A DNA stretch of 32,000 nucleotides from Candidatus Omnitrophota bacterium. GTDB lineage: Bacteria > Omnitrophota > Gorgyraeia > Zapsychrales > JANLHA01. The stretch spans positions 930,001 to 962,000 of the forward strand of contig OY759724.1 in assembly GCA_963662715.1 (NCBI GenBank), given 5' to 3'. Under the pieces are notes generated by a model. It had not been told where the DNA came from and did not search any database. It worked only from the letters and a program-made list of their open reading frames with translations. Of the stretch, positions 10,848 to 25,745 are shown one piece after another. The translations under genes were made by a program, and so were the position numbers. Positions within the stretch are counted from its first letter, which is position 1; every line of letters starts with the position of its first letter.

Positions 10848-11949
10848 TCAGTTTCCCGCCCCGGGCTTCCATCGTAAAAAAGCATCGATAAACAGACTTA
10901 AGTCACCGTCCATGATGCGGGGGACATTGCCGGTCTCCACGTCTGTCCGGTGGTCTTTCACCATGTTATACGGGTGCATCACGTAGGAGCGGATCTGGCT
11001 GCCCCACTCAATTTTCTGTTTTTGCCCGTACTCCTTCGACATCCGCTCTTCCTGTTCCTTGCGTTTCTTTTCGTACAAGCGGGCCTTAAGGATTCTCATG
11101 GCCATTTGTTTATTCTGCAGCTGAGAGCGTTCGTTCTGGCACTGAACCACGATGCCCGAAGGCAAATGCGTGATCCGCACGGCGGAATCCGTTGTGTTGA
11201 CGGACTGACCGCCGGGGCCGGATGAACGGAAAATATCAATCCGCAAGTCATCCGGATTAACCTCAACTTCAACATCATCCGCTATTTCCGGGATCACATC
11301 CACGGACGCGAATGAAGTGTGTCTTCTTTTATTGGCATCAAAAGGCGAAATACGCACGAGCCGGTGCACGCCTTTTTCGCCCTTCAGGTATCCGTAGGCG
11401 ATATCGCCTTCAATGCGCAATGTCACATTCTTTATCCCGGCCTCTTCCCCGGGGAGAATATCCGTCGTCGTGACCTTATATTTCATGTTCTCCGCCCAGC
11501 GCATATACATGCGCAAAAGCATGTTCGACCAGTCACACGACTCCGTACCCCCGGCACCGGCATTAATACTCAGGATGGCGTTGTTCTGGTCAAAAGGGCC
11601 GGACAGCAAAGATTTGTTTTCCAGAGAATCGATCTCTTTCCGCAAACCCGCCAGGTCCGCTTCAATCTCCTGCATAGACGACTCTTCGCCTTCTGATAAT
11701 TCCGCCAGTTCCTGCAGTTCATCCAGCTTTTTAGAAATTTCATTACAAGGCTCAACGCAGGATTTGAGAAACTTCAATTCCCGCATGACCTTGTTGGCCG
11801 CTTCATTATCATCCCAGAAATCGGGCTGGGCCATTTTCTGCTGAATGGCCTCAATGGCTTCCTGCTTCTGGGAGAGGTCAAAGAAACCCCCTAAGTTGAT
11901 GGAGTTTTTTCTTAAGGATATCTATTTGTAAATGAATATCACTAGGCAT
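10848..11949 (-). CDS. prfB: Peptide chain release factor 2, made by a programmed +1 frameshift (frame 0: 11949-11881; frame +1: 11879-10848)
   Basis: SPF tripeptide (RISPFD) and GGQ (SGPGGQSVN) are present. The track ORF lacks the N-terminus. By hand, upstream MPSDIHLQIDILKKKLHQLRGFL ends at an in-frame TGA, and the +1 frame continues DLSQKQEAIEAIQQKMAQPDFW into the track ORF. Confidence 0.93.
11877..11892 (-). promoter_or_regulatory. prfB: prfB autoregulatory +1 frameshift site
   Basis: The minus strand reads AGG GGG TTT CTT TGA C. This is an internal SD-like AGGGGG, a 3-nt spacer and the slippery CTT before TGA-C. The architecture matches E. coli AGGGGGTATCTTTGAC. Confidence 0.9.
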
Positions 11950-12077: not shown

Positions 12078-13595
12078 CTAAGGCCCTTTTTTCTCAAAAA
12101 TAAAAATAACCGGAGCCACGGTCGGAGCCCGACCTTTCAGCCTGTATCTAAGCTTCCCGATACTCTTGACCTGCCGGTACCCTTTCCTTTCCAGGAAATC
12201 CTGAAAAGGTGATCCCCCGGGACGAATCAAGACATCCTCCTCTTTGCCCCAGTTATCCAAAACAAGAATGACATGGCCGGAGGCTGTTTCTAAAAGTCCC
12301 TTCACTTCGTCGCGGTTTTTCGGGAATTCGATTAATTGTCCGCCGAACCTTGCAAAATTCACCCCGCTGTAATACCGGATAAACCTCGGGGAATTGGCTA
12401 TAATCACGGTCTCCGGCCGGGCGTTCTGCCGCACCCAGGAGCCCGCGTCCGGGAACCCGAGGTAGAACTTCCGTTCTTCCGACAGAGTATGATGCGTTTC
12501 CGGATACTGAATCCCGGCGATAAAGCACACCAGCCCGAGCATCAGCCAGCGCACCATACTTTTCTTCTCTTTCGAAAAAAAGAATTCCATAAGCGCATTC
12601 ACACCCAGAGCGGCAAAAACAATCAAGGCCGGCAGGTAGACCAGGCTGTACCGGAAAAGACGTTCCGCGGCGCATGACAGGGCAACCATAAAAACGATGC
12701 CCCAGGAAAACAGCAATACAGCGACGGGTTTATTATCCCCTTTCAACAGGGCCGCCATGCCGATGAGGGCCAGGACGGTCAGCATGGCAGAGCCTAATAG
12801 ATCATTCATCCCCAGGACGTAAAACCATCTTGAAGCCGGCTCTTTGGTGGTTTCCAGCAAAGCCGACATGTCGGGAAGACAGGTGCCTAACTGAATGCGG
12901 TTATTCAGCAATAAAAGGAAAGCCGTCCCCAGGATGACGGACACCGGCCGCACCAGTTTTCGGATCCGCTCTTTGCCGCTTAGATTTTTCAACCCTAAAA
13001 GATAAAACACCGTTATCAGGATTACGACAACGGCTCCCGACCATTTCGTCAGCACGAGAGCCGCCCCGGCTCCGCCCAGATAAAAATCCAGCCTTTTCCC
13101 CTTTTTCCCGGAGACCTCCAGCAGAATAAGCGCCGCCAGCATCATCAAAAGCATGAACAGGCTGTCGCTCAGAATTTTTGTTGAAAACTTCAGAAACGTG
13201 GCATTGAACGACAGCAGGACGGCACAGATCAAACCGCCGAAAGGATCCATTATTCTCCGGCCCAGAACATACATCATCAGAATACAGAGCAGGCCGATGA
13301 TCAAAGATACGATGCGGCAGGCCGGCAGCGCAGGGTGGAACAGGCTCCCTGCGGCCAGGACACCGCTGAACAACGGAGGATGAAATTCATTGACTTCCGC
13401 CGAAAACAACAGCAGGGGATTCCCGGCTATCCTCATAGCGTTCCAGGCATATAAAGCCTCGTCGGCCCACAGCCGTTCCTGGAACATGAACTTTATTCTG
13501 ATCAGCAAAGACATGACCAGCAGGGCGGTTAACGCCAGAGCATAGCCGTATTTTTGAAAAGAGACCGGTAGACCTTGATTAACGTTCTTGTTCAT
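12078..13595 (-). CDS. GT-C fold membrane glycosyltransferase, PMT_2/ArnT-like (GT39/GT83-type)
   Basis: 505 aa, about 11-12 TM helices. The first periplasmic loop has RLWADEALYAW ... HPPLF, the DE ... hPPL signature of ArnT/PMT-type enzymes. A C-terminal soluble domain is present. Confidence 0.8.
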   Translation of the reverse strand: MNKNVNQGLPVSFQKYGYALALTALLVMSLLIRIKFMFQERLWADEALYAWNAMRIAGNPLLLFSAEVNEFHPPLFSGVLAAGSLFHPALPACRIVSLIIGLLCILMMYVLGRRIMDPFGGLICAVLLSFNATFLKFSTKILSDSLFMLLMMLAALILLEVSGKKGKRLDFYLGGAGAALVLTKWSGAVVVILITVFYLLGLKNLSGKERIRKLVRPVSVILGTAFLLLLNNRIQLGTCLPDMSALLETTKEPASRWFYVLGMNDLLGSAMLTVLALIGMAALLKGDNKPVAVLLFSWGIVFMVALSCAAERLFRYSLVYLPALIVFAALGVNALMEFFFSKEKKSMVRWLMLGLVCFIAGIQYPETHHTLSEERKFYLGFPDAGSWVRQNARPETVIIANSPRFIRYYSGVNFARFGGQLIEFPKNRDEVKGLLETASGHVILVLDNWGKEEDVLIRPGGSPFQDFLERKGYRQVKSIGKLRYRLKGRAPTVAPVIFIFEKKGP

Positions 13596-15459
13596 TGATC
13601 GATGGACGGTTGATTTTAAAAAGCCAAAAGTCGTGACGTTCTTTGTGTATGAGTGTAAACAAAGGGGAATGCTTTAACCCGGCGAGCTTTTTCGACACGA
13701 CTTCTTTGCCGAACTCCTTCACGGCCCGTTCACTGACGACAATATATTCATAGTCATTCCCGGCAAGACGGGAATAAAGGGTATCCGGGTCCAGCTCAAT
13801 GGCATCGTGAAACGAGTCCTGATAAGCCCTGGTCCAATAGTCGCTGGCCATGTCGTGGCCGATCACCAATTTGTTATCAACAAACGTAAAAACCCGGGAC
13901 CCGGCTCTGATATTCCGGCGCATCCAAACGAACCCTTTCATTTCATGATACGATCCCCAGGATATCCCGTAATCCCAGAGATCATTATTCACGACAAATT
14001 TCGGATATGCGGACGTCAGCAGAACAGCGGTGATCAAAAACCCTGCCTTCCTTTTATGAAACCGGCTTTTGTCCGTGGTGACACAGTCGACCCCCTCCGC
14101 CGCAAAAACACAAACAGGGACGGCGAGCAGGGGCCAAAACCGGTAGGCGAATAAACCGACCGGCAGAGAAAACGTTTTGGAATTCAGCCCCAGAAACGTA
14201 AAAGCGAGCCATAAAAGCATCGTTGAATAATACTCCCGCTCCTGACGGTCTCCCCGGGCCAGCCGGTACAGGCCTTTGCCGATGCCCAGAAGCGTAAGAA
14301 GACTGACAGCGAGGCCGAACCCCATCGGGCAATTATAATCATTGTACAGCGGGGGAAAAAGGTAATTCTCCATGGAATACTTCCGGGTCGTGCTTCCGGT
14401 GCCGGGGTTAAAGAGCCTCCGCTGAATCGTCGTCACAGCCTGAGCCCCTCCCACATCTTCGTTCAGGACGGTCGTCTTCAGCTTTAACTGTCCCGAGCGG
14501 TATGATTGATAGACCGGCACATACCAGGCGGCGGATATCAGAACGGCGGTCAAAGGCACCGCAACCAGGCGCAGAGGGATCTTTTTCCTTATCAAAAGCA
14601 TACCGGCGTACCACAGAGCCAGCATGACCATAAACTTAACAGGCTGCGTGGGCTGGACCAACAATATACCGGCTGTCACCATGACGGCAGATAAGAAAAA
14701 CCGGGCGTCTTCCCGGCATTTCCAGACACAATAAAACCCGACGAGGAACAATGTAACGGCCAGGGAATGCGCCCAGATAAAATGGCTCAGATAAGCCGGG
14801 ACGGCGGCCAGGAAAAACGCGGCCCATAAAGAGCGCGCGGAATTTTTCGTTAAAGCGTTGATAAAAAAGTAAAAAAACAGGATGCCCAAAGCGATGATCA
14901 AACCGTTAAAAAACTTCAGGGTCCAGTACAGAGACGGGGACGTCTGGTGCATTAAAGCCATGACCAGATCGTACCCCGGAGGATACGGATTGATATACTG
15001 AAACAGCCCGGAATCCGCGTTCAAATTCTTTTCCACCATTATATAGGCCGTGCCTGCGGCATGATGCCAGGGATCGTCATCTTCCAGCCAGGAATAAGTA
15101 AACGCCCCGCCGCAGTACATGACAACGCAGAATATAAAAATAACGGCCAGACATAATACCTTCTTTGTGAATTTAAGATCTGCAGGGACACGGCTTTGCT
15201 TTTTCCGTCCGCGGATATAGTCGGTGACGGGAAAAACAACCGCCAAAAACAAGAAAACCGTCCAGTGAAGGGGCACACCCAACAGGTTAAGCCACACCCC
15301 CAAAACAGGAACCGCGGCTAAACCTATGCCGACGCGCATTATAATGATTTCAAAATTAAGGGCCTGAACAAAACGGGTCAGGGCGTAGCCCAGACCATAG
15401 GTATATACGAAAAACAAAATAATGTTGGCTAGACTGGAGAGAACGTTAAATAGGGACAT
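13579..15459 (-). CDS. Large GT-C-like polytopic membrane protein with oligosaccharyltransferase-like motifs (function uncertain)
   Basis: 626 aa, more than 12 TM helices and a ~135-aa C-terminal soluble domain. Loop motif WLEDDDPWHH (15090-15061) is followed by NPYPPGYD. LWDYG (13980-13966) comes directly after the last TM helix. Overlaps the downstream GT-C gene by 17 nt. Confidence 0.7.
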   Translation of the reverse strand: MSLFNVLSSLANIILFFVYTYGLGYALTRFVQALNFEIIIMRVGIGLAAVPVLGVWLNLLGVPLHWTVFLFLAVVFPVTDYIRGRKKQSRVPADLKFTKKVLCLAVIFIFCVVMYCGGAFTYSWLEDDDPWHHAAGTAYIMVEKNLNADSGLFQYINPYPPGYDLVMALMHQTSPSLYWTLKFFNGLIIALGILFFYFFINALTKNSARSLWAAFFLAAVPAYLSHFIWAHSLAVTLFLVGFYCVWKCREDARFFLSAVMVTAGILLVQPTQPVKFMVMLALWYAGMLLIRKKIPLRLVAVPLTAVLISAAWYVPVYQSYRSGQLKLKTTVLNEDVGGAQAVTTIQRRLFNPGTGSTTRKYSMENYLFPPLYNDYNCPMGFGLAVSLLTLLGIGKGLYRLARGDRQEREYYSTMLLWLAFTFLGLNSKTFSLPVGLFAYRFWPLLAVPVCVFAAEGVDCVTTDKSRFHKRKAGFLITAVLLTSAYPKFVVNNDLWDYGISWGSYHEMKGFVWMRRNIRAGSRVFTFVDNKLVIGHDMASDYWTRAYQDSFHDAIELDPDTLYSRLAGNDYEYIVVSERAVKEFGKEVVSKKLAGLKHSPLFTLIHKERHDFWLFKINRPSINEQER

Positions 15460-15465
15460 TGCAGT

Positions 15466-15495
15466 AATATATCATATGGCGGACAGGTCTGTCTA
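15466..15495 (-). promoter_or_regulatory. Candidate promoter giving a leaderless or near-leaderless mRNA for the GT-C operon
   Basis: Minus strand: TAGACA (15495-15490), 18 nt, TATATT (15471-15466), 6 nt, ATG (15459). No SD is present before this ATG. Confidence 0.4.
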
Positions 15496-15637: not shown

Positions 15638-15964
15638 TCACCTTCTGGCGGCATAATTAAAATGATCAAAATAGCTGCGCCATAATGTTTCCGTGGAAGA
15701 GAATTGGTTTGTTCCGCAGAAATAATCAAGAAGGCATTCTCTTAAACGGGTAAGTTCTTTACGGCGGGGCAAAGTGTTGAGCGAGGCCAAAGTCAAATCA
15801 ATTAATTCCAGAGCCCGGTAAAATGCTTTTTGAGAATAAAGGTCATTCTTTTTCTTCTGCCAGTTTAACGCCCGGCTAACCTCGCTGCCAATATGCGCCA
15901 TCTGTTCGACCAAAGGCATTTGGCTCCAGCGCCCTGCGGCAAGATCTTTATGTTGAACTGTCAT
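15638..15964 (-). CDS. 108-aa predicted helical protein of unknown function (second gene of the cassette)
   Basis: Intact ORF whose ATG overlaps the stop of the upstream gene (ATGA at 15961-15964). From memory, the sequence type (..HIGSEVSRALNW.KK.N....KAFYRALELIDLT..) recurs as an unannotated hypothetical protein in other uncultured bacteria. Confidence 0.7.
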   Translation of the reverse strand: MTVQHKDLAAGRWSQMPLVEQMAHIGSEVSRALNWQKKKNDLYSQKAFYRALELIDLTLASLNTLPRRKELTRLRECLLDYFCGTNQFSSTETLWRSYFDHFNYAARR

Positions 15965-16302
15965 CTCGGTATCCTCTTTAAAACAATATCGAAAATCCTT
16001 TTTCGAATATGTTCATCATCTACCCCGCGGCTCATATTGTTCTGTGAAGGGCGCAAATTGATCATTGAATCGAATTCCACAAAATTTTCCAAAGACAAAT
16101 CCGGATAAAGATTTATCCCCCAAAGGCTTTTTTGTTGCGAGCCCCTTTCAAGCAGGAGGGCTTCCAGGTCAGAATGCAACTCAGCGTTTAATCCTATAAT
16201 CTCTTTATCAACATCAACGACAGCTTTGACCATGTCTCCGAACAAATCCTGAGCCATGACTTTTAACTCTTCTAAAGATAATGTTGTATCAACGATTTTC
16301 AT
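15961..16302 (-). CDS. DUF5674-like protein (first gene of the cassette)
   Basis: 113 aa with the blocks FGDMVKAVVD, ELHSD.EALLLE.GS.Q..LWGINLYP and EFDSMINLRPSQ.N.SRGV, which I recognise as the DUF5674 family pattern. No SD; a candidate leaderless promoter lies directly upstream. Confidence 0.75.
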   Translation of the reverse strand: MKIVDTTLSLEELKVMAQDLFGDMVKAVVDVDKEIIGLNAELHSDLEALLLERGSQQKSLWGINLYPDLSLENFVEFDSMINLRPSQNNMSRGVDDEHIRKRIFDIVLKRIPR

Positions 16303-16441: not shown

Positions 16442-16485
16442 AAAACTAAAAAAATCCTCTTTCGAAAAAACAAAAGAGGATTTTT
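16441..16485 (-). terminator. Rho-independent terminator downstream of the CapD/PglF-like gene (hairpin is symmetric, possibly bidirectional)
   Basis: An 11-bp stem pairs AAATCCTCTTT (16452-16462) with AAAGAGGATTT (16473-16483) around a 10-nt loop. On the minus strand it is followed by TTTTTTTAGTTTTT. Confidence 0.6.
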
Positions 16486-16509: not shown

Positions 16510-18429
16510 TCAACCGCGTTCCATCTCCCTGATAAGCTCGGGATCGTCCGTATTCCCCCACCGGAGAATCTCCAAAGCATTGGTTTTCGAAGCGTTTTCT
16601 TGAGAATTAAATTCCGGCACAACCTGCTTCATTTTACTCAGCACGCCCGGAATGTCCCTCACATCAGCCAGCTGCCACAGCTCTTCCACATCACGGAACA
16701 GCTTTTCCTTGTCAAAACTCCGGGGCTTCTCCACGTAAATCTGATTATTCGCAGTCTTCTGCACCCCCTCCTGAGAGGTCAGCAATTCTTCATATAACTT
16801 CTCTCCCGGCCTCAAACCGACAATCTCGATCTTAATATCTCTATCCGGCTCAAAACCCGACAACTTGATCAAAGACTTGGCCATATCCAGGATACGCACC
16901 GGCTCACCCATCTCTAAAACATATATCTCCCCGCCCCTGGCCATGGCCGCCGCCGTCAGCACCAGCTGTACAGCCTCGGGGATCGTCATAAAATACCGCA
17001 CAACGTCCGGGTGAGTCACGGTCACCGGCCCGCCCTGGGCGATCTGCTTCCGGAACAGCGGCAGGACACTGCCGTTACTGTCGAGCACGTTTCCGAACCG
17101 CACCGCGCTGAACACCGTATCGCTATGCCCGTTCAAAGACTGGATCACCATCTCTGCCAGCCGTTTACTGGCCCCCATGACATTCGTCGGGTTCACGGCT
17201 TTATCCGTTGAAATCATCACAAACCTTTTGACCCTGTGCTTCATCGCCAAGGTCGCGATATTATACGTCCCCCAGATATTATTTTTTACAGCCGCGTCAA
17301 TATTCCTCTGCATCAGCGGCACATGTTTGTAAGCCGCCGCATGAAAGACCACCTCCGGCTTAAACTGTTCAAAAATGTGATCCATCTTATTTTTATGCTG
17401 AATATTGGCCACCAGCGGAACATGCAGAGGCTGGACATTTTTCCTGAGAGCTGAAAGCTCCATATCAATGGAATAAACATGATGTTCAGAGCTGTCCAAA
17501 AGGATCAGCTGTTTCGGCTGATACCCGCTGATCTGCCGGCACAGTTCAGAACCGATCGACCCGCCGGCCCCGGTGACCATAATCACTTTCCCGCGCAGGT
17601 ATTTTACGATCTCCTCCCGGTCGGCTAAATTAGGCTCCCGGCCCAGAAGATCTTCCGGCTCAACATTTCGGATCTCGCTGATATTAACAGACCCGTCCAA
17701 GATCGACACCAAAGACGGCACTTTTTTAACTTCGGCATCGGTCATCTCGCAGAGCGTCACGATGCGCCGCATCTCGTCACTATGGGCGGACGGGATGGAA
17801 ATAATGATCATCTCCACATGTTTTCTTTTAACGATCGACCTGATGTCTGCTGTCGTGCCCAGCACCGGGATCCCGTGAATAAGGCTGCCCTTTTTAACCG
17901 GATCGTCATCCACAAAACCGACCGGATGATACTGGGCATGCTCGGCCCTTAAAATATCCCGCACCAGGCCTTCACCGGCATCCCCGGCGCCTACGACAAG
18001 GATCCGTTTGGCCGAATCCTGATTGCCGGTCCTTTTCCAGGAATACAAGGTATGGATAGCCAGCCTTAAACCCGTGGTAAACAATACCGCCAAAACCATC
18101 CCCAGCAGAATAACGATCCGCGGGAACGTCCAGTGATGGATAAAATACAGCACCAGCATATAAATGGATACGCTTAAAGCCACGCCGCCGAAAAGACGGA
18201 TGACATTTTTAGCGGTCATGTAGCGCCAGTCATGATGATAGAACTGGGACCGGGAAAACACCGTGAAACTGATCATGGAGTACAGCAAAAACGTGTGGAG
18301 GTACATATCCCGCCAAGGAGACGGAACGGCAAAATCGAAACGCAGCACCAAAGCCAAAAAAAGTGCGAGATTAATAACAATCATATCGCATACCATCAAA
18401 AATCCCCGGCTCTTCATAAGACGCTTCAT
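16510..18429 (-). CDS. Membrane-anchored UDP-GlcNAc 4,6-dehydratase family protein (CapD/WbpM/PglF type)
   Basis: Four N-terminal TM helices and two Rossmann segments (VVGAGDAG and VTGAGGSIGSEL). The catalytic region STDKAVNPTNVMGASKRLAE is typical of polysaccharide biosynthesis protein CapD. Confidence 0.9.
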   Translation of the reverse strand: MKRLMKSRGFLMVCDMIVINLALFLALVLRFDFAVPSPWRDMYLHTFLLYSMISFTVFSRSQFYHHDWRYMTAKNVIRLFGGVALSVSIYMLVLYFIHHWTFPRIVILLGMVLAVLFTTGLRLAIHTLYSWKRTGNQDSAKRILVVGAGDAGEGLVRDILRAEHAQYHPVGFVDDDPVKKGSLIHGIPVLGTTADIRSIVKRKHVEMIIISIPSAHSDEMRRIVTLCEMTDAEVKKVPSLVSILDGSVNISEIRNVEPEDLLGREPNLADREEIVKYLRGKVIMVTGAGGSIGSELCRQISGYQPKQLILLDSSEHHVYSIDMELSALRKNVQPLHVPLVANIQHKNKMDHIFEQFKPEVVFHAAAYKHVPLMQRNIDAAVKNNIWGTYNIATLAMKHRVKRFVMISTDKAVNPTNVMGASKRLAEMVIQSLNGHSDTVFSAVRFGNVLDSNGSVLPLFRKQIAQGGPVTVTHPDVVRYFMTIPEAVQLVLTAAAMARGGEIYVLEMGEPVRILDMAKSLIKLSGFEPDRDIKIEIVGLRPGEKLYEELLTSQEGVQKTANNQIYVEKPRSFDKEKLFRDVEELWQLADVRDIPGVLSKMKQVVPEFNSQENASKTNALEILRWGNTDDPELIREMERG

Positions 18430-18499
18430 ACTCTTATCTTCTCCTCTTTCCCGCGGCCTTCCCGCAAAACTATTAATAATTTTTTAATTTTTAATAACC

Positions 18500-19150
18500 T
18501 TAGTTTTTATGATCAGAAGTCAATCGACTCGCCAAGTCATTGATATTTTTACCAAACACATTCACGAACATTTTCATATACTCTAAGCGTACAACCCTGC
18601 GGCCGGCAGGACTCTGCCACCAGATGTCCGGATTAAACCAGCTGTCAGTCACCGGACAATACATAAGTTTCACCCCGCTGCGTTTGAACGTCCGGTCAAA
18701 TAACATTGCCACCCGGCGCATATGATAAGGCGAACTGACAATTATCGCTGATGTAAATCCGTTTTCGCGCAACAGCGGTGCGACCAATAACGGGTGCTGG
18801 TACGTGTGCAAAGACTGAGATTCCAGCAAAATATGTTCTGCCGGAACGCCCATGCCCCGGGCCTGCCTTTTCATGTTCGCGGCCATCGTACTAGGAACGG
18901 AACTCAAACCGCCGCTCATGATCATGTAATCCGCAAGGCCCTGTTTATACAGCGCCACAGCATGACCGACGCGTTCATCGTCTCCGGATAAAACCACAAT
19001 CACATCCGCTTTTTTCAAATCATCCGCAACAACCAAAAAACGACCTAAAGCCCTGCACACCGGTTCCCGCCAAATTATCAACAGAGCGCTTAAAAATAAA
19101 AGGCCCAAAAACAATCTGTAAATTGTCTTAGAGGATTTTTGTTTTTTCAT
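18500..19150 (-). CDS. YdcF/DUF218 (ElyC/SanA-like) family protein
   Basis: Signal-anchor MKKQKSSKTIYRLFLGLLFLSALLII, then the DUF218 core VIVVLSGD....R...A..LY..G.A..I..SGG and VSSPYHM.R. I prefer the ATG at 19150; the track start at 19258 is a TTG. Confidence 0.8.
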   Translation of the reverse strand: MKKQKSSKTIYRLFLGLLFLSALLIIWREPVCRALGRFLVVADDLKKADVIVVLSGDDERVGHAVALYKQGLADYMIMSGGLSSVPSTMAANMKRQARGMGVPAEHILLESQSLHTYQHPLLVAPLLRENGFTSAIIVSSPYHMRRVAMLFDRTFKRSGVKLMYCPVTDSWFNPDIWWQSPAGRRVVRLEYMKMFVNVFGKNINDLASRLTSDHKN

Positions 19151-19281
19151 AATCCGCCTAAAAAGGCCTTTTTCAGCAAGAACTGCTTTTATAAACAAAT
19201 ACAACCATAAGGTAAAATTCCACTTATATCCGTCGGTATCATCCGGCCTTTCAGCCAAGGTCTATACGAGAACAAAGGCAA

Positions 19282-19311
19282 AGTATACCAAACTAATATA
19301 TATAATGTCAA
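19282..19311 (-). promoter_or_regulatory. Strong sigma70-like promoter upstream of the YdcF and CapD-like genes
   Basis: Minus strand: perfect TTGACA (19311-19306), 18-nt spacer, TATACT (19287-19282). It lies in a 230-bp intergenic gap. Confidence 0.5.
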
Positions 19312-19488
19312 TAGGGCAAGCCCCTACATACTCGGACATACCGGTATATACGGGGACATGGCTTTTTCACAGGAAAAACTGCTTAAATTCCGCCCTAAAA
19401 TTATCCTAACACATGATTATGAAAACCCGGTGAGCAAGACGTGAAGAACAGAAAAGGAAAACTCGGGAGAGGACAAAATACGGCAAAA

Positions 19489-20676
19489 TTAACCGGCCGC
19501 TTTTTTAAGTACGGATCTCATACTATCGATCACATAATGAATACTTCTTTGACTCAAGGTGGGGTGAACCTGCAGCATGATGGACTTTTCCCCAAGCTTC
19601 CTGGTCACGGGTAAGCGCGGCTGCGGTTTCAAGCCAGCCTTTTTTCTTTGCATGCGAAAGGCTTTCTCTCTGTATATTTCCGGACAAGCCCCGCTGCCGC
19701 AGGGTATGCCCAAAGCCGCAAGTTCCTGCAGGATCCTGTCCCGGGACCAATCTTTTTTCAATCTTGGGGTGTCCACGAGGACATAATACTTGTAATAAGC
19801 ATGATAAATTTCATCCGGAGGCCTGGTGACCGTCAACCCCGGTATTGTTTCAAAAGCATCGTCCAGCATAGCCGCGTTACGGCGGCGGACGGCAACCATA
19901 TCGTCCAAACGCTTCAACATAATCCGTCCGATCACCGCCTGCATTTCCGTCATCCGGTAATTCGTCCCAAAGCTGTTCACCATCCATTTAAATCCGGTCC
20001 CGCCTTTCTGATGAAACACCACATCAAAATCACGGCCATGGTCCTTGAGGCTCCAGGCTTTTTTCCAAAGCTTCGGGGCTTTCACCGCCAGCAACCCTCC
20101 CTCTCCGCCAGTCGTGAATATCTTGTCCTGACAAAAAGAAAACGAGGCAAACGGCCCGAATGTTCCGACAGGCTTCCCTTTGTATCTTGCGCCGTGCGCC
20201 TGCGCGCAGTCTTCGATGAGCGACAGCTTTCTTACCCGGCAAAGCTTCAAAATAGGATCCATATCACACGGCCACCCGGCCAAATGAACCGCAATAACCG
20301 CCTTGGTTTTTTTCGTCAAAACGGCGGCAATCGTCTCTGCCGTCATGTTTCCGCTTTGCGGATCCACATCGGCAAACACAGGCAGGGCTCCGGTTAAGGA
20401 AACACAGCTGGCCGAGGCCACAAAAGAACGGCTGGCCACCACAACCTCATCCCCGGGCCCGATCCCCAAGGCTCTTAAAGCAACATCCAGAGTGACCGAA
20501 CCGTTGGCCATAGCAATAGCCTGTTTAATCCCCAGATACTGCGCGTATTCTTTTTCAAACGCATAAACATGTTGGCCGGTCCACTGATTCACCTTGCCTG
20601 AACTCAAAACCTTCTCGACCGCCTTTATAATTTCCCGGTCAAAAGACGGCCACGGCGCAAAAACGGGCTGTGTCAT
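19489..20676 (-). CDS. DegT/DnrJ/EryC1/StrS-family PLP-dependent sugar aminotransferase (PglE/WbpE/WcfR-like)
   Basis: Family-typical layout with the PLP-lysine block FSFCQDKIFTTGEGG and the N-terminal P.F..E...V..VL.SG. 4-nt overlap with the upstream transferase gene. Confidence 0.9.
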   Translation of the reverse strand: MTQPVFAPWPSFDREIIKAVEKVLSSGKVNQWTGQHVYAFEKEYAQYLGIKQAIAMANGSVTLDVALRALGIGPGDEVVVASRSFVASASCVSLTGALPVFADVDPQSGNMTAETIAAVLTKKTKAVIAVHLAGWPCDMDPILKLCRVRKLSLIEDCAQAHGARYKGKPVGTFGPFASFSFCQDKIFTTGGEGGLLAVKAPKLWKKAWSLKDHGRDFDVVFHQKGGTGFKWMVNSFGTNYRMTEMQAVIGRIMLKRLDDMVAVRRRNAAMLDDAFETIPGLTVTRPPDEIYHAYYKYYVLVDTPRLKKDWSRDRILQELAALGIPCGSGACPEIYREKAFRMQRKKAGLKPQPRLPVTRKLGEKSIMLQVHPTLSQRSIHYVIDSMRSVLKKAAG

Positions 20677-21326
20677 AACGCATATTTCTCCCTGAATAAT
20701 TTTACAGAATTATGTTCTTTCACCGGCCATATTTTGCCCAAAGGGATCAGCACCCAGACTGTCTGCACCAAAATCAGCAAATCGAAAAAAAACGAATTCT
20801 TCCGCACATGCTCCAGGGCCAAATCCACCTTTAAAGGCACGACCACTTCATCATAAAACTCATCGGCATTCTTAACTTTTGCCAGGATCTCCTCTTCATG
20901 CCGGAAATGCAGTGTGGCGACACTGGTGATACCCGGCCGTACCGAAAATATACGCTTCATCTCCGGCGTGTATTTCGCGGTGATTTCCGGCACATCCGGC
21001 CGCGGCCCCACAAAACTCATGTCGCCTTTAAGCACATTAAATAACTGGGGCAGTTCATCAAGCTTGGTCTTGCGCAGGAATCTCCCCACGGGCGTAATGC
21101 GGGGGTCAACCCCGGTTGTCACCGACGTCCCCAGAGTATCGGCTTTGTCGACCATGGTGCGGAATTTGTAAACATCAAATATTTGTTCGTGCAGCCCCAC
21201 TCGCTTCTGCGCGTAAATGACCGGCCCCTGCGACGTCAGTTTGATAAGCACGGCCGTGACGCCCATAAGCGGAGCAAACACCGCCAGCCCAAATAGCGAA
21301 AATATAATGTCAAAAAGGCGTTTCAT
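20673..21326 (-). CDS. Small monotopic phosphoglycosyl transferase (bacterial sugar transferase; PglC/WcfS-like initiating enzyme)
   Basis: 217 aa. Re-entrant helix MKRLFDIIFSLFGLAVFAPL, then KFRTM, the LDELPQLFNVLKGDMSFVGPRP catalytic DE dyad and the PRP motif. Confidence 0.9.
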   Translation of the reverse strand: MKRLFDIIFSLFGLAVFAPLMGVTAVLIKLTSQGPVIYAQKRVGLHEQIFDVYKFRTMVDKADTLGTSVTTGVDPRITPVGRFLRKTKLDELPQLFNVLKGDMSFVGPRPDVPEITAKYTPEMKRIFSVRPGITSVATLHFRHEEEILAKVKNADEFYDEVVVPLKVDLALEHVRKNSFFFDLLILVQTVWVLIPLGKIWPVKEHNSVKLFREKYAL

Positions 21327-21581
21327 AGATCTTTATTATTACACAAAAATTTATTTCGATTATCCATTCTCCTGTTGCATGGACAAACTGCATAACAAGA
21401 TTTCCAGCATCATCTAAAATTCCCACGACACCAAATCGAGGTTCGTTAAATTAAATTTAAGCAAAAAACAGCAAAATAAACATTTGAAAGGATTTTTCTA
21501 AAGACACAAATAGTCTTTTGTAAATGTAATACATATTTATATCAGTTCTAGAGAAGACTTTTTAAACAGCGCACACACGAT

Positions 21582-22640
21582 CTAAATAATAAGCCGTGGC
21601 ACTTTGTAGCCGCGATATTTTATTAAAAATTTTGGTATATTAAACATACCAGCCAAGGTGCCAACGCCATATGCAAAATGGATTAAGAAAAAAGTGCCTG
21701 GCAACATACAACACAAGGGTTTTACATCCTTATTAGCTTCCCTCATAGCCCGGAACGAGAAAAAAACAGCGCAAAAGAAATAGATCAATATCAAAATAAC
21801 GAGTGGGACAACATTCTTCAGCATTGCAAAAATTAGACTCACTAAACATGCAAACACAAAAATAGCAGGGACAAAATGACGAGCACAAAAACATTTTGGA
21901 GAAATTGATGCTGTTATGGCTATCCAATAACCAGTCCCAAACTTTTGCTTAAGCAACCCTGACATATTCGACCTCGGAAAATGAAAGGATACGATCTCTG
22001 GATTAAAATAAAATTTAAATCCAGCCTGTCTCATCCGATAATGAATTTCCATATCCTGATTCCGTACCAATCGTTCATCATATCCACCGACAAGAGAAAA
22101 TATGTGTTTTCGATATGCTGCGTGAGCTAATGTCTCAACATAACGCGCAGGGCCGGGATGTTTAAATCCGGCGGCTCCGGCTCCGAATCTGGATTCTTCT
22201 GCTAAAGCAAAAAAAGCTGGCCACTTTTCATTTGGCACACGACTGACCCTAGCCCCCCCCACGATACTTTCCCCCCGGGAAATGGCATCAACATTCTTAC
22301 GAATAAAGTCCCGAGGGATACGGCTATGAGCATCCACTCGCAAGATGACTTCCCCTTTCGCATGCGCAAGAGCAACATTCCACCCAGCTGATAATATCTT
22401 GCCTGGATTGGACAGAATTTTGAAAAACAAGTCTGCATGATGAGATTGAAAATCGTAAATTATGTTTAAAGAGTTATCCGTTGAACAACCATCAACGCAC
22501 AAAATTTCAAACTTGTCATGCGGGTAGTCTTGTTCAGAGATATCGGTCAATAGGTCTGCCAAACTACACTCCGCATTTCGAAACACAATAATAAATGTAA
22601 CCAACATCACGGGACAAAGGTCGACTTTCTCATTACTCAT
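21582..22640 (-). CDS. Family 2 glycosyltransferase with a C-terminal TM region
   Basis: GT-A signature V.FIIVFRN....L...L..I..QDYP....EIL.VDG.STD and ILRVDAHS, with three or four hydrophobic helices at the C-terminus. Low-GC gene. Confidence 0.85.
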   Translation of the reverse strand: MSNEKVDLCPVMLVTFIIVFRNAECSLADLLTDISEQDYPHDKFEILCVDGCSTDNSLNIIYDFQSHHADLFFKILSNPGKILSAGWNVALAHAKGEVILRVDAHSRIPRDFIRKNVDAISRGESIVGGARVSRVPNEKWPAFFALAEESRFGAGAAGFKHPGPARYVETLAHAAYRKHIFSLVGGYDERLVRNQDMEIHYRMRQAGFKFYFNPEIVSFHFPRSNMSGLLKQKFGTGYWIAITASISPKCFCARHFVPAIFVFACLVSLIFAMLKNVVPLVILILIYFFCAVFFSFRAMREANKDVKPLCCMLPGTFFLIHFAYGVGTLAGMFNIPKFLIKYRGYKVPRLII

Positions 22641-22760
22641 TGTTATTTAAAACTCTCCATATCAAGATTATTTCCAACAATTCTATGCTAAAAATTATTC
22701 CAATACGAATAAAATTTCAACATGAAATACTTTATAAAAAAAGACAACATAAATACAGAT

Positions 22761-23654
22761 TCATTGAGAGCAGGTACGACGGTTAATTTCTTCAAGTTTA
22801 TATAACGGCCGTAAAAATTCAAAGGACTTCTGCAATAAATTGCGACAAGGATACGTTGCACAAATGATACCAGCTGTTACAGGATGATAATGAATTTGTA
22901 GCCCCATTGATTGTTTTCTAAAACCAAATTTTGAGATAAGGACTTCCTGAACTCGAGTAGCATGACTTAAATTGCGAAATCCACTATTTACATACTGAAA
23001 CTTTTGCACATCAAGATAATATTTATTTCTTTCATAAAAAAGTATCGCACTAGGATTAAGCCGCAAGTAATCAGGATCGAATTTGGTCATTGAATAATTG
23101 GCCTCGATTTTATCATACAGATAAACCTGTGAATACGCAATTAACCTACCGGATTCTTTTTCAAAAACTCCCCAACAATCTACAATATCCTCAAAACCAA
23201 TCGCTGCCAGCATATTTTGTTTAAATTGCCTCTCTGTTTTAACTAATCGCGTGTTTCTATAGCGCTTAAAAGCTGAAGAAAAAACAGGCCATGCATTTTC
23301 CGCAATAAATTTCACGCTGACTTTTCGAACTTCACATTTATTTGCCCCACGAACGATTTCTTTTCTTATTTTTCCTCTCATCTTCATAATATGTTCAACA
23401 TTATCACAAATAACAGAATACCATCCATTAGCAATCTCACTAAACCCTGTAGTACTTCGAACCAATATCGCTGGGCTTAATTTATGCAATAAGAACTTAG
23501 CGGCTGTACGTGAAAGGGAAAAATTATCTATCGCTGGGCCGACAGGAACTATCATGTTTTGATAATATACCCACAAATTATCATCTAAAAAGAATGCCCT
23601 TCGTCCTTGTTCCTTAAAAAGGTCAAAATATCGACGATTAACCTCAAGCTTCAT
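22761..23654 (-). CDS. FemAB/CelD-like GNAT-superfamily acyl or aminoacyl transferase (paralog 2; family assignment tentative)
   Basis: 297 aa. The pattern RK.I.R......V.K, GRLIAY...Y.....ANYS..K.DPDYL.L.P..ILFYE and NSGFRNL......QE.LISKFGF resembles Acetyltransf_6/FemAB-type proteins. Clearly paralogous to the upstream gene. Confidence 0.55.
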   Translation of the reverse strand: MKLEVNRRYFDLFKEQGRRAFFLDDNLWVYYQNMIVPVGPAIDNFSLSRTAAKFLLHKLSPAILVRSTTGFSEIANGWYSVICDNVEHIMKMRGKIRKEIVRGANKCEVRKVSVKFIAENAWPVFSSAFKRYRNTRLVKTERQFKQNMLAAIGFEDIVDCWGVFEKESGRLIAYSQVYLYDKIEANYSMTKFDPDYLRLNPSAILFYERNKYYLDVQKFQYVNSGFRNLSHATRVQEVLISKFGFRKQSMGLQIHYHPVTAGIICATYPCRNLLQKSFEFLRPLYKLEEINRRTCSQ

Positions 23655-23700
23655 AACCCTTTATCCTCAAAGGATATATTCATTTAAATATAATATCCGA

Positions 23701-24591
23701 TCACTTATTATTGTTCATAAATTTATTTATTTTATCAAATTTTTGCAAAGCAGATAAGGGTGGGCATGTTTGCCGGAACAAAACATAAAATGGTTCCAAC
23801 AGATTCAATCCTTTAGCAACGAAAGGTCTATAGCAAACTTGCAATCCTACGGGTTGCTTTTTATAAGAATATTTTTTTATAAGTAATTCTTCAATATTAG
23901 TTTCATGCAACAAATTTCTAAATCCAGAGTTAAGATAACTAAACTGTTGTTCCTCCAAATAATATTTATCCATTTCATAAAAAAGTGCCCAGCCAGGATA
24001 AAGATTAAGAAAATCAGGATGAACTTTTATAGTTGAATAATTAACTTCAATTTTCCCATAGCAATAATTTTGCGCATAAGCAATCAACCGACCTGTCGCG
24101 TTTTCAAAAGCACCCCAATATTGCGAAACATCTTCAAAACCAACAGGGACAACATTTCGCCTGAATTCTCTTTCTGATAGTGTTGTCCAAGGATTTTTAT
24201 GTAATTTAATAGCAGACGAAAAAATTGGCCAAGCTTTTTGTCTTATAAGCTCTGGATCGATCTTCTGTGTAGTACAGAATTTTAATCCCTTTCGAGTTTT
24301 ACTTCTTGCCTCTTTGCTAGCCATATCTGCGACAGGAATAAACTTATCTCTTATTACACAATACCATTCTTCAGGAAAATCGACAAAACCAGTCGTCGAT
24401 CTAACAAGTATTGCGCTTTTAAAATATTTCAATAAATTCCTAAAATCTTTAACAGAAATAGAATAATTTTGACTTACTGGCCCAACAGGAACGACCATTT
24501 TCTGATACAGAGTCCACAAATGCCCTCCTGCAAGAAAATATGGTTTACCTTGTTTCTCTAAAAATTCTTGGTGCCTTACGAAATTAAACAT
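23701..24591 (-). CDS. FemAB/CelD-like GNAT-superfamily acyl or aminoacyl transferase (paralog 1; family assignment tentative)
   Basis: 296 aa. Shares VPVGP, AILVRSTTGF, AWP.FSSA.K, GFED....WG.FE...GRLIAY.Q.Y.Y.KIE.NYS, LFYE..KYYL..Q.F.Y.NSGFRNL and GLQ..Y.P with the downstream paralog. 8-nt overlap with the GT4 gene. Confidence 0.55.
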   Translation of the reverse strand: MFNFVRHQEFLEKQGKPYFLAGGHLWTLYQKMVVPVGPVSQNYSISVKDFRNLLKYFKSAILVRSTTGFVDFPEEWYCVIRDKFIPVADMASKEARSKTRKGLKFCTTQKIDPELIRQKAWPIFSSAIKLHKNPWTTLSEREFRRNVVPVGFEDVSQYWGAFENATGRLIAYAQNYCYGKIEVNYSTIKVHPDFLNLYPGWALFYEMDKYYLEEQQFSYLNSGFRNLLHETNIEELLIKKYSYKKQPVGLQVCYRPFVAKGLNLLEPFYVLFRQTCPPLSALQKFDKINKFMNNNK

Positions 24592-25729: not shown

Positions 25730-25745
25730 AAATAAATGCCTACAA

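What the first reader, a model, noticed from the sequence alone, without database searches (positions are those of the whole stretch)
13579..15459. GT-C membrane protein with oligosaccharyltransferase-like motifs next to bacillosamine-type sugar genes
- The 626-aa polytopic protein has an acidic DxD-type loop motif after a TM helix, WLEDDDPWHH (15090-15061). About 25 residues later comes NPYPPGYD. This resembles the first external loop of STT3/AglB/PglB enzymes (DxD followed by P-aromatic-aromatic-H, then a YP.G segment).
- LWDYG (13980-13966) lies 4 residues after the last TM helix, at the start of the C-terminal soluble domain. This is roughly where the WWDYG catalytic motif of oligosaccharyltransferases sits.
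- A 4/5 match to WWDYG at that position is unlikely by chance.
- The window also encodes PglF-, PglE- and PglC-like enzymes, a flippase and GTs.
- The gene overlaps by 17 nt a second, clearly ArnT/PMT-type GT-C gene (12078-13595; DEALY ... HPPLF). The two are therefore probably co-translated.
- Caveats: I could not find convincing TIxE/SVSE or DK/MI motifs. All GT-C families share an acidic loop followed by a PP-containing segment. The protein could therefore be a different GT-C enzyme, for example a polysaccharide or lipid glycosyltransferase.
Basis: partly seen in the sequence, partly recalled or inferred. Interest (0 to 1): 0.7.

Follow-up and report, generated by a model that had tools for sequence, protein, structure and literature searches.

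The report
Uncharacterised GT-C glycosyltransferase, not an oligosaccharyltransferase
The gene encodes a membrane glycosyltransferase of an unstudied family shared by tiny DPANN archaea and Omnitrophota bacteria; it resembles the enzymes that attach N-glycans to proteins in overall fold but lacks most of their defining motifs, so it most likely adds single lipid-carried sugars to a surface glycan or protein.

Summary
The ORF, the quoted motifs and the 17-nt overlap with a PMT_2-type GT-C gene are all real. The oligosaccharyltransferase (OST) reading is not supported.

- **LWDYG:** only W495 and G498 are conserved. The Asp occurs in 4 of 163 relatives; Pro is usual.
- **STT3 signal:** no STT3 Pfam hit in 46 members. 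hhalign to 38 true DPANN AglB gives 8.8%.
- **Other OST motifs:** no conserved EL2 acidic motif and no conserved external-loop Glu.
- **Coexistence:** canonical AglB (WWDFG) lies about 1 kb from family members in four archaeal loci.
- **Relatives:** hhalign to the neighbouring PMT_2-type family gives 98.6% over 441 columns. Several relatives pass Pfam DUF6541.
- **Fold search:** the confident AlphaFold model hits STT3 first, but TM-scores are about 0.45 for all GT-C classes. A bona fide PMT_2 control also hits STT3 strongly.
- **Context:** an ArnC/DPMS-type GT2 is within the flanks of 65 of 83 loci.

Best reading: an extracytoplasmic GT-C enzyme using a polyprenyl-phosphate sugar donor. The acceptor is unknown. 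The window's sugar genes form a self-sufficient Wzx/Wzy polysaccharide locus, and the closest relative's locus lacks them.

The parts
13579..15459 (-). Target gene: 626-aa polytopic GT-C-fold protein of an uncharacterised family at the edge of Pfam DUF6541
   Evidence: ORF. No Pfam hit for this protein. AF2 model pLDDT 92.3, pTM 0.93. Foldseek hits to GT-C enzymes only. 744 cluster representatives in the 1.84-billion library.
15166..15459 (-). N-terminal extension of three TM helices (residues 1-98) preceding the canonical GT-C TM1; carries conserved E37 and R42
   Evidence: Helices 3-27, 36-59 and 66-82 at pLDDT above 90. Conservation. Covered by the DUF6541 profile from position 3. Absent from the PMT_2 neighbour, whose alignment starts at target residue 120.
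15061..15090 (-). External loop 1 acidic motif W-L-E126-D-D-D129-P-W-H-H; presumed catalytic or acceptor-activating acidic cluster
   Evidence: E126 and D129 invariant, D128 43/46, D127 40/46, W131 45/46, H133 44/46. It follows the TM helix 99-118, which comes after a +8 cytoplasmic loop, so it faces outward.
14968..14991 (-). N-P-Y-P-P-G-Y-D segment of external loop 1 (Y159, P160, P161 invariant)
   Evidence: Aligned by hhalign with the H-P-P-L-F of the PMT_2-type neighbour.
14773..14784 (-). External loop 2 motif H226-F-I-W229, where OSTs carry their second acidic DxD motif
   Evidence: H226 and W229 invariant; no conserved acidic residue in this loop. DPANN AglB has invariant D371-T-D373 at its second acidic motif.
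14314..14496 (-). Long external loop (residues 322-382) after the seventh core TM helix; no conserved acidic residue
   Evidence: Secondary structure. Conserved residues are F350, G355, T358, Y361, N376, G380 and G382 only.
14140..14142 (-). Invariant R440 (F-A-Y-R-F-W), candidate donor-phosphate ligand shared across GT-C classes
   Evidence: Invariant. Aligned with invariant R315 of the neighbour family and with invariant R580 of DPANN AglB.
13966..13980 (-). L-W495-D-Y-G498: chance near-match to WWDYG on a conserved W-x-x-G scaffold (family motif K-x3-N-T-x2-W-x-x-G-x-x-W-x-S-x-E-E)
   Evidence: The motif precedes the first helix and strand of the C-terminal domain.
13582..13983 (-). C-terminal extracytoplasmic alpha/beta domain (residues 493-626), of the type found in the PMT_2/ArnT-like neighbour
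   Evidence: Secondary structure. Included in the 98.6% hhalign match to the PMT_2-type family. Domain alone: 62% to the PMT_2-type family, 0.25% to AglB.
12078..13595 (-). Partner gene: 505-aa PMT_2/ArnT-type GT-C (DEALY, HPPLF)
   Evidence: Pfam PMT_2 1.2e-9 and PMT 2.8e-9. AF2 model pLDDT 82.8. Foldseek top hit ArnT, 5.9e-9, TMq 0.67. The overlapping pair is conserved in L001.
13579..13595 (-). 17-nt overlap between the target's last codons plus stop and the partner's start codon (possible translational coupling)
   Evidence: Sequence read. An 8-nt overlap is seen in the closest relative's locus.
15466..15495 (-). Promoter-like site (TAGACA-18-TATATT with an upstream TG) 7 nt before the target's ATG
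   Evidence: This is a consensus match only: the region has 7 such sites against 4.9 expected.
16450..16485 (-). Terminator-like hairpin (15-bp stem plus T-run) just after the PglF-like gene, separating the polysaccharide locus from the GT-C pair
   Evidence: This is a consensus match only.

Best explanation
The gene encodes an integral-membrane GT-C (class A) glycosyltransferase of an uncharacterised family at the edge of Pfam DUF6541. The family is found in DPANN archaea and Omnitrophota.

Architecture (shown): three extra N-terminal TM helices precede a PMT/ArnT-like core. The core is TM, external loop 1 with the E-D-D-D-P-W acidic cluster and Y-P-P, six TMs, a long external loop, four TMs, and a small C-terminal alpha/beta domain. 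All conserved polar motifs face the outside of the cytoplasmic membrane.

Mechanism (inferred):
- It takes a sugar from a polyprenyl-phosphate-linked donor. The donor is most likely a polyprenyl-monophosphate monosaccharide made by an ArnC/DPMS/GtrB-type GT2 and flipped outward.
- It transfers the sugar to an extracytoplasmic acceptor, such as a surface glycan, a lipid-linked glycan or a protein side chain.
- D129 and its acidic neighbours activate the acceptor. R440, K182, K275 or K487 hold the donor phosphate.
- In this genome it is made together with, and may work with, the overlapping PMT_2-type GT-C.

It is not an STT3/AglB/PglB-type N-oligosaccharyltransferase.
For: - **GT-C fold:** AF2 model pLDDT 92.3. 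The significant Foldseek matches (E <= 0.001) are all GT-C enzymes: STT3, AglB, DPY19, PglB, AftA, ArnT, PMT.
- **Homology to the PMT_2/ArnT type:** hhalign A1 versus 30 PMT_2-type neighbours gives 98.6%, E 1.2e-15, 441 columns, residues 120-621 including the C-terminal domain. The neighbour's own model hits ArnT first at TMq 0.67.
- **DUF6541:** six relatives score above the Pfam gathering threshold, over residues ~13-467.
- **Not an OST:** no STT3 hit in any of the 46 aligned sequences, this protein included. hhalign to 38 DPANN AglB gives 8.8% over 82 columns, while the PMT_2 control versus AglB gives 98.1%.
- **Missing OST motifs:** the WWDYG Asp is in 4/163. There is no conserved acidic residue in EL2 or the long loop, whereas AglB has invariant D371/D373, E517, WWDFG and D793/K797.
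- **Coexistence with true OST:** canonical AglB is adjacent in L015, L018, L054 and L071. It is also in the same assembly as P0053.
- **Donor:** a GT2 matching ArnC (9e-18), P. furiosus DPMS (8e-17) and GtrB full-length lies within the flanks of 65/83 loci. It is within 200 nt in 24 and within 3 kb in 54. LPG_synthase_TM, Wzx/MATE and DUF2304 membrane proteins recur nearby.
- **Precedent:** three-component systems of polyprenyl-P-sugar synthase, flippase and GT-C are established (PMC11127046).
- **Topology:** positive-inside loops place all conserved motifs outside.
Against: - Foldseek E-values favour STT3/AglB (1e-9) over ArnT (5e-5).
- The EL1 D-P-W resembles AglB D-P-Y more than the PMT_2 D-E-A-x-Y.
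- This protein has no Pfam hit at all.
- No ArnC-type GT2 lies within the 32-kb window, so the donor inference rests on relatives.
- In archaea DPMS-like GT2s also build Dol-P-linked N-glycan precursors, so the GT2 neighbour is not fully discriminating.
- A Wzx-type flippase is directly downstream in 17 loci. That would also fit an enzyme that uses flipped oligosaccharide donors.
- Donor, acceptor and activity are untested.
Confidence: 0.6

Rival explanations
1. It is a non-canonical oligosaccharyltransferase. It transfers a flipped lipid-linked oligosaccharide en bloc to proteins (N- or O-linked), using a degenerate W-x-x-G motif in place of WWDYG, and so does not read the N-x-S/T sequon in the standard way.
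For: - STT3, AglB and PglB are the best Foldseek matches, at 1e-9 to 2e-6.
- The EL1 D-x-D-P-W is like AglB I-D-P-Y.
- Invariant R440 aligns with AglB R580.
- The conserved junction motif N-T-x2-W-x-x-G falls on AglB N-S-W-W-D-F-G in the best, though non-significant, C-domain path.
- Wzx-type flippases are directly downstream in 17 loci, and glycan-assembly genes surround most family members.
Against: - The Asp that binds the +2 Ser/Thr is absent in 159/163 family members.
- No conserved EL2 DxD, no EL5 Glu and no DK/MI counterpart.
- No STT3 Pfam hit in 46 members.
- hhalign to AglB gives 8.8% full-length and 0.25% for the C-domain.
- Element order differs from OSTs: W-x-x-G precedes the first helix and strand, whereas in AglB WWDFG lies about 40 residues after the last TM segment. 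That WWDYG follows a helix and strand is from published PglB/AglB structures.
- Canonical AglB coexists and is adjacent in four loci.
- A PMT_2 control also hits STT3 at about 1e-7.
Confidence: 0.1
2. It is a glycan polymerase or ligase-type enzyme. It uses flipped polyprenyl-diphosphate-linked repeat units, for example joining or attaching the polysaccharide made by the adjacent Wzx/Wzy locus to a lipid or cell-surface anchor.
For: - It is adjacent to a complete polysaccharide locus in the window.
- Wzx or MurJ-type flippases recur near family members.
- Two of the 46 aligned family members gave weak Wzy_C hits, best E 0.0023.
Against: - The window locus already has its own EpsG/Wzy polymerase and Wza/Wzc export.
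- Known polymerases and ligases (Wzy, WaaL, SEDS) have different folds and do not appear among the Foldseek hits, apart from a weak FtsW-complex hit at E 0.42.
- The closest relative has no polysaccharide genes nearby.
- The strongest conserved neighbour is a monophosphate-sugar synthase-type GT2.
Confidence: 0.1
3. It is mainly a non-catalytic or regulatory partner of the overlapping PMT_2-type GT-C. The two would form an obligatory heteromer like Pmt1-Pmt2 or EmbA-EmbB, or it would be a lipid-carrier-handling protein such as the 'flippase activity-associated' Agl23 type.
For: - The 17-nt overlap, and an 8-nt overlap in L001, suggest coupled synthesis.
- A PMT_2-type GT-C lies within three genes in about 30 of 83 loci.
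- The neighbour weakly matches the Agl23 model TIGR03663 at 5e-6.
Against: - The acidic cluster, Y-P-P, R440 and many outward-facing residues are invariant, as expected for an active enzyme.
- In most Omnitrophota loci the PMT_2 gene is convergent rather than co-transcribed.
- Many archaeal loci lack an adjacent PMT_2 gene.
Confidence: 0.07

Closest known systems
PMT_2 / ArnT-type GT-C enzymes (Pfam PF13231; ArnT, CAZy GT83; PMT, GT39)
   Same: - Profile-profile homology of 98.6% over 441 columns to the PMT_2-type genes that neighbour family members, C-terminal domain included.
- Same core order: TM1, EL1, six TMs, long external loop, four TMs, C-terminal alpha/beta domain, as in the neighbour's model.
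- Shared P-P segment and conserved Arg.
- Frequent pairing with an ArnC/DPMS-type GT2.
   Different: - This protein gives no PMT_2 or PMT Pfam hit, and only three of its 45 aligned relatives give weak ones.
- Its acidic motif is E-D-D-D-P-W rather than D-E-A-x-Y.
- It has three extra N-terminal TM helices.
- TM-score to ArnT is only 0.44, against 0.67 for the neighbour.
STT3 / AglB / PglB oligosaccharyltransferases (Pfam PF02516, CAZy GT66)
   Same: - Best Foldseek E-values, 1e-9 to 2e-6.
- EL1 D-P-aromatic motif, a conserved Arg (R440 ~ AglB R580), similar size, and a C-terminal extracytoplasmic domain.
   Different: - No conserved WWDYG, EL2 DxD, EL5 TIXE/SVSE Glu or DK motif.
- No PF02516 hit in 46 members.
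- hhalign 8.8%.
- The long external loop follows the 7th core TM, whereas published PglB structures place it after the 9th.
- It coexists with canonical AglB.
Pfam DUF6541 (PF20176), an uncharacterised membrane-protein family
   Same: Fourteen of 46 relatives hit it. Six score above the 29-bit gathering threshold (best 44.9 bits, 7e-12). The match runs from the N-terminus, so it includes the three extra TM helices, to about residue 467.
   Different: - The window's protein itself does not reach significance.
- The profile's last ~180 positions are not matched.
- Nothing is published under that name.
Three-component extracytoplasmic glycosylation systems (GtrA/GtrB/Gtr*, ArnC/ArnT, GT136 systems; in archaea AglD/AglR/AglS)
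   Same: The family-level context matches the scheme described in PMC11127046:
- an ArnC/DPMS/GtrB-type GT2 next to the GT-C;
- flippase-like membrane proteins nearby (LPG_synthase_TM, Wzx/MATE, DUF2304).

The comparison with AglS, a GT-C acting beside AglB, rests on my own knowledge.
   Different: - No such GT2 or small flippase lies in this 32-kb window.
- Donor sugar and acceptor are unknown.
- A second GT-C is usually present.

Membership tests
STT3/AglB/PglB oligosaccharyltransferase (GT66) | Match to the STT3 profile (Pfam PF02516) or to NCBIfam STT3 models | tested here: not met
   No PF02516 hit at E <= 0.1 for the protein or any of 46 family members. One member hits archaeo_STT3 at 7.8e-4, far below the cutoff. 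The true DPANN AglB scores 1.9e-48.
STT3/AglB/PglB oligosaccharyltransferase (GT66) | Conserved WWDYG motif in the extracytoplasmic domain (binds the +2 Ser/Thr of the sequon) | tested here: not met
   W495 and G498 are invariant, but Asp is in 2/46 and 4/163, and Pro in 102/163. AglB relatives have invariant W-W-D-F-G.
STT3/AglB/PglB oligosaccharyltransferase (GT66) | First DxD-type acidic motif in external loop 1 | tested here: met
   E126 and D129 invariant, D127 and D128 near-invariant, followed by P-W as in AglB D-P-Y. This feature is shared with other GT-C classes.
STT3/AglB/PglB oligosaccharyltransferase (GT66) | Second acidic motif (DxD / DxxxxxD-H) in external loop 2 for the metal site | tested here: not met
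   Loop 220-228 has invariant P221, H226 and W229 and no conserved acidic residue. AglB has invariant D371 and D373.
STT3/AglB/PglB oligosaccharyltransferase (GT66) | TIXE/SVSE glutamate in the long flexible external loop (EL5) | tested here: not met
   No position in 322-382 is acidic in at least 85% of members. AglB has invariant T514-V-A-E517.
STT3/AglB/PglB oligosaccharyltransferase (GT66) | DK or MI motif in the extracytoplasmic domain | tested here: inconclusive
   No conserved D-x-x-K. The only conserved acidic positions in the domain are E506 and D536 (87%). No reliable alignment of the domains exists (0.25%), so positional equivalence cannot be checked.
STT3/AglB/PglB oligosaccharyltransferase (GT66) | Profile-profile homology to bona fide family members | tested here: not met
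   hhalign against 38 DPANN AglB gives probability 8.8%, 82 columns. The control, PMT_2-type versus AglB, gives 98.1%.
STT3/AglB/PglB oligosaccharyltransferase (GT66) | Structural similarity specifically closer to OSTs than to other GT-C classes | tested here: inconclusive
   STT3 and AglB have the best E-values (1e-9), but TM-scores are 0.43-0.48 for OSTs against 0.44-0.47 for ArnT and AftA. A PMT_2 control also hits STT3 at about 1e-7. No coordinates were available to superpose.
STT3/AglB/PglB oligosaccharyltransferase (GT66) | Transfers lipid-linked oligosaccharide to Asn in a sequon | not testable with these tools
   Needs a glycosylation assay.
GT-C class A glycosyltransferase superfamily | Polytopic membrane protein with a conserved acidic residue in the first extracytoplasmic loop, and the fold of solved GT-C enzymes | tested here: met
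   AF2 pLDDT 92.3. Foldseek probability 1.0 to 23 GT-C chains. Acidic loop invariant and outward-facing.
GT-C class A glycosyltransferase superfamily | Uses a polyprenyl-phosphate-linked sugar donor | not testable with these tools
   Only contextual evidence: an ArnC/DPMS-type GT2 in 65/83 loci.
PMT_2 / ArnT-like (PF13231) | Match to the PMT_2 or PMT Pfam profile | tested here: not met
   No hit for this protein. Weak hits in 1 (PMT_2) and 2 (PMT) of 46 members.
PMT_2 / ArnT-like (PF13231) | Profile-profile homology over the core and the C-terminal domain | tested here: met
   hhalign 98.6%, E 1.2e-15, 441 columns against 30 PMT_2-type proteins.
Pfam DUF6541 (PF20176) | Score above the gathering threshold (29 bits) | tested here: not met
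   No hit for this protein. Six relatives pass, at 30.1-44.9 bits, so the family sits at the edge of DUF6541.
Three-component extracytoplasmic glycosylation system | Adjacent polyprenyl-phosphate sugar synthase (ArnC/GtrB/DPMS-type GT2) | tested here: not met
   None within the 32-kb window. At family level it is met: 65/83 loci, 24 within 200 nt.
Three-component extracytoplasmic glycosylation system | Dedicated flippase for the lipid-linked monosaccharide | tested here: inconclusive
   LPG_synthase_TM (23 loci), Wzx/MATE (28 loci) and DUF2304 (4 loci) recur near relatives. None is assignable in the window apart from the polysaccharide locus Wzx.

The most novel reading that the evidence does not exclude
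The family is a previously unrecognised GT-C lineage with its own architecture: three extra N-terminal helices, E-D-D-D-P-W, and a W-x-x-G junction motif. It appears confined to the nano-sized DPANN archaea and Omnitrophota. Under this reading it acts as a sequon-independent protein or S-layer glycosyltransferase, or as a WWDYG-less oligosaccharyltransferase. It would work beside canonical AglB and with a PMT_2-type partner, and would shape the cell surface these episymbionts use to contact hosts.
Probability: 0.12. Interest if true: 0.7.

Novelty: new variant of a known kind. Interest (0 to 1): 0.35.

Why it matters
- **Against over-annotation:** a bacterial N-glycosylation enzyme should not be called from a near-WWDYG string and a top STT3 fold hit.
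- **A family to characterise:** the family has 744 cluster representatives and at least 264 species genomes, and no characterised member, no literature and no CAZy-style assignment that I could find. It is shared between two lineages of ultra-small, often host-attached cells.
- **Testable hypothesis:** its conserved pairing with a polyprenyl-phosphate sugar synthase and a second GT-C points to a specific surface-glycan modification. Characterising one member would define a new GT-C family and its donor and acceptor.
- **Limit:** the enzymology is expected to be ordinary for the GT-C superfamily.

Tried and rejected
- **Sequence and profile search of the PDB:** nothing significant. There were only spurious Sec61-gamma hits to an N-terminal TM helix, and yeast Stt3 C-domain 2lgz at E 0.24. 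I rejected these as evidence.
- **Source contig look-up:** neither the target nor the neighbour P0241 is on record. All I learned is that the neighbour's exact sequence lies on a 3.36-Mb contig.
- **C-terminal-domain-only hhalign:** too weak against AglB to map WWDYG positionally, at 0.25% and 0.4%. I first inferred by transitive alignment that WWDFG corresponds to the end of strand 522-525. I keep this only as a suggestion.
- **Structure prediction of the neighbour using locus-derived homologues:** I redid it with database homologues.
- **Literature searches:** DUF6541, GT-C with DPANN or Omnitrophota, and AglB in DPANN found nothing on this family.
- **Neighbouring sugar genes as a pgl-type N-glycosylation locus:** rejected. 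The locus has Wza, Wzc, Wzx and EpsG/Wzy and looks like a complete polysaccharide pathway, and no PglD-type acetyltransferase turned up among the ORFs scanned.

Full report
**1. The observation.**
- ORF 13579-15459 (-) encodes 626 aa. It is followed by a 505-aa ORF, 12078-13595 (-).
- The overlap is 17 nt: the ATG of the second gene lies inside ...ATC AAT GAA CAA GAA CGT TAA.
- WLEDDDPWHH is residues 124-133, NPYPPGYD is 157-164 and LWDYG is 494-498, at the stated coordinates.
- The downstream protein matches PMT_2 and PMT at about 1e-9.
- The window also holds PglF-like, DegT and small PglC-like genes. One search adds Wza, Wzc, an epimerase, Wzx and an EpsG/Wzy polymerase.
- This set amounts to a self-sufficient Wzx/Wzy polysaccharide locus, not a pgl-type locus. 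No PglD-type acetyltransferase turned up among the ORFs scanned.
- Between it and the target lie two unrelated small genes (DUF5674 and a 108-aa ORF).
- A 15-bp-stem terminator-like hairpin follows the PglF-like gene. A promoter-like site sits 7 nt before the target's ATG (consensus matches only).

**2. The protein and its family.**
- The target has no Pfam hit and only a weak NCBIfam hit, to a Leptospira 'putative glycosyltransferase' family at 5e-4.
- It has 364 database relatives, all unnamed or 'hypothetical', from Omnitrophota and from Woese-, Nano- and Pacearchaeota.
- A profile search of 1.84 billion cluster representatives finds 744 relatives at E <= 1e-3.
- A pattern scan finds the family in 264 species genomes.
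- In a neighbour-joining tree the ten bacterial sequences form one clade, apart from 71 archaeal ones.
- Fourteen of 46 aligned members hit Pfam DUF6541. Six are above threshold. The hits run from the N-terminus to about residue 467.
- No member hits STT3.

**3. Structure.**
- The AlphaFold2 model is confident: pLDDT 92.3, pTM 0.93.
- With the positive-inside rule it gives the following order:
  - three N-terminal TM helices;
  - a +8 cytoplasmic loop;
  - a TM helix;
  - external loop 1, carrying E126-D-D-D129-P-W, then Y-P-P and H171-Q;
  - six TMs;
  - a 60-residue external loop (322-382);
  - four TMs;
  - a 134-residue alpha/beta domain.
- Every conserved polar motif is on the outer face.
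- Published structures place the long external loop after the 7th core TM in ArnT and PMT, but after the 9th in PglB. The target follows the ArnT/PMT pattern. The neighbour's model has the same 7+4 core without the N-terminal extension.

**4. Fold search and its control.**
- Foldseek against the PDB ranks STT3 (1e-9), AglB (5e-9), DPY19 (2e-7), PglB (2e-6), AftA (1e-5), ArnT (5e-5) and Pmt4 (2.5e-4).
- TM-scores are 0.39-0.48 for all of these, with rmsd from 7 to 14 A, about 12 A for most.
- As a control I modelled the PMT_2 neighbour (pLDDT 82.8).
- Its top hit is ArnT (5.9e-9, TMq 0.67), but STT3 chains follow at 6e-8 to 3e-7.
- STT3 is therefore a general attractor for class-A GT-C queries.
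- The target's four-log preference for STT3 remains unexplained. It is not decisive, because the target is structurally distant from every solved enzyme.

**5. Tests of the OST reading.**
- I found true AglB genes in the fetched loci: about 1,017 aa, PF02516 at 1.9e-48, with WWDFGHW.
- I built a 38-sequence DPANN AglB alignment. Its invariant hallmarks are:
  - D227-P-Y in EL1;
  - D371-T-D373 in EL2;
  - T514-V-A-E517 in EL5;
  - W673-W-D-F-G677;
  - D793-M-x-x-K797.
- The target family keeps only the first:
  - EL2 has H226 and W229 and no acidic residue;
  - the long loop has no conserved acidic residue;
  - no D-x-x-K is conserved.
- At LWDYG only W495 and G498 are conserved. The Asp occurs in 4 of 163 distinct relatives (Pro in 102) and exact WDYG in this protein alone.
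- The 4/5 match is rare against shuffled sequence, at 0.8%. It is explained by a conserved W-x-x-G scaffold with variable middle residues.
- In the model this motif precedes the first helix and strand of the C-terminal domain. In published PglB and AglB structures WWDYG follows the first helix and strand.
- hhalign results:

| Comparison | Probability | Detail |
|---|---|---|
| family vs AglB | 8.8% | 82 columns, R440 on AglB R580 |
| family vs 30 PMT_2-type neighbours | 98.6% | E 1.2e-15, 441 columns, C-domain included |
| PMT_2-type vs AglB (control) | 98.1% | shows the AglB profile is sensitive |
| C-domain only, family vs PMT_2-type | 62% | |
| C-domain only, family vs AglB | 0.25% | |

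- The family coexists with canonical AglB. It is adjacent in L015, L018, L054 and L071. It is also in the same assembly for P0053 and P0188, which share the locus-tag prefix KY360.

**6. Genomic context across 86 loci.**
- I called ORFs and clustered them.
- The commonest neighbour is a ~293-aa GT2 with C-terminal TM helices. It is present in 65 of 83 loci, within 200 nt in 24 and within 3 kb in 54.
- That GT2 matches ArnC (9e-18), Pyrococcus DPMS (8e-17) and GtrB over its full length. It is therefore a polyprenyl-monophosphate sugar synthase type.
- Other recurrent neighbours are Wzx/MATE flippases (28 loci, 17 directly downstream), LPG_synthase_TM (23), methyltransferases and DUF2304.
- PMT_2-type GT-Cs lie within three genes in about 30 loci.
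- In seven Omnitrophota loci a PMT_2 gene is convergent with the target.
- In the window and its closest relative (61% identity, L001) the two genes overlap head-to-tail.
- L001 has no sugar-nucleotide genes nearby, but it does have a third GT-C-like gene.
- The window itself has no ArnC-type GT2. Its 352-aa GT2 matches known structures only over the N-terminal GT-A domain.

**7. Interpretation.**
- Shown:
  - a GT-C class-A fold;
  - an outward-facing invariant acidic cluster;
  - homology to PMT_2/ArnT-like enzymes;
  - absence of four of the five OST hallmark motifs;
  - coexistence with true AglB;
  - conserved linkage to an ArnC/DPMS-type GT2.
- Inferred:
  - the enzyme transfers a monosaccharide from a polyprenyl-phosphate carrier to an extracytoplasmic acceptor, as in the three-component systems reviewed in PMC11127046, and like AglS beside AglB in haloarchaea (my own knowledge);
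  - D129 acts in catalysis and R440 binds the donor phosphate;
  - the overlap with the PMT_2 gene implies co-production and perhaps joint action.
- Unknown: the sugar and the acceptor.
- Two points keep some weight on an oligosaccharide-donor role, which I put at about 0.1 for an OST and 0.1 for a ligase or polymerase:
  - archaeal DPMS-like GT2s also start Dol-P-linked N-glycans;
  - Wzx flippases are often adjacent.

**8. Verdict.**
- The protein belongs to an uncharacterised GT-C family at the edge of DUF6541, with an unusual N-terminal three-helix extension. The family is restricted, as far as these searches show, to DPANN archaea and Omnitrophota.
- I rate it a new variant of a known kind, of moderate interest.

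Noticed in passing
window 10848-11883 (-): The RF2 (prfB) ORF starts late. The canonical +1 programmed-frameshift site CTTTGAC sits just upstream at 11877-11883. This is the ordinary prfB autoregulatory frameshift.
   Followed up: partly
window 16510-31813 (-): A complete Wzx/Wzy-type polysaccharide locus: Wza, Wzc, epimerase, Wzx, EpsG/Wzy, GT4, GT2, small PglC-like phosphoglycosyltransferase, DegT aminotransferase, DUF218 and a PglF-like dehydratase. No PglD-type acetyltransferase turned up among the ORFs scanned, so the sugar is a 4-amino-4,6-dideoxy-HexNAc type but not demonstrably di-N-acetylbacillosamine.
   Followed up: partly
window 22761-23654 and 23701-24591 (-): Two tandem paralogous ORFs of 297 and 296 aa inside the polysaccharide locus. 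Neither has a significant Pfam or NCBIfam match.
   Followed up: no
window 15638-16302 (-): A DUF5674 gene (15961-16302) and a 108-aa family-less ORF (15638-15964) overlap by 4 nt. They lie between the sugar locus and the GT-C pair and look like an inserted two-gene cassette.
   Followed up: no
proteins P0142, P0158, P0181, P0185, P0211 and others: Many DPANN AglB/STT3 homologues carry fused peptidyl-prolyl isomerase domains: rotamase PF00639/PF13145/PF13616, or FKBP_C PF00254. This is an oligosaccharyltransferase-foldase fusion.
   Followed up: no
L001 8057-9544 (-); L004 5711-7975 (+): Further GT-C-like membrane proteins sit directly beside family members: a weak TMEM260_N match in the closest relative's locus, and a 754-aa PTPS_related (PF10131) protein in a marine Woesearchaeota locus. 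These loci therefore stack two or three GT-C genes.
   Followed up: no
L015 196-6255; also L018, L054, L071: In one Woesearchaeota/Nanoarchaeia sublineage the gene order is family member, DUF2304 small membrane protein, then canonical AglB on the opposite strand.
   Followed up: partly
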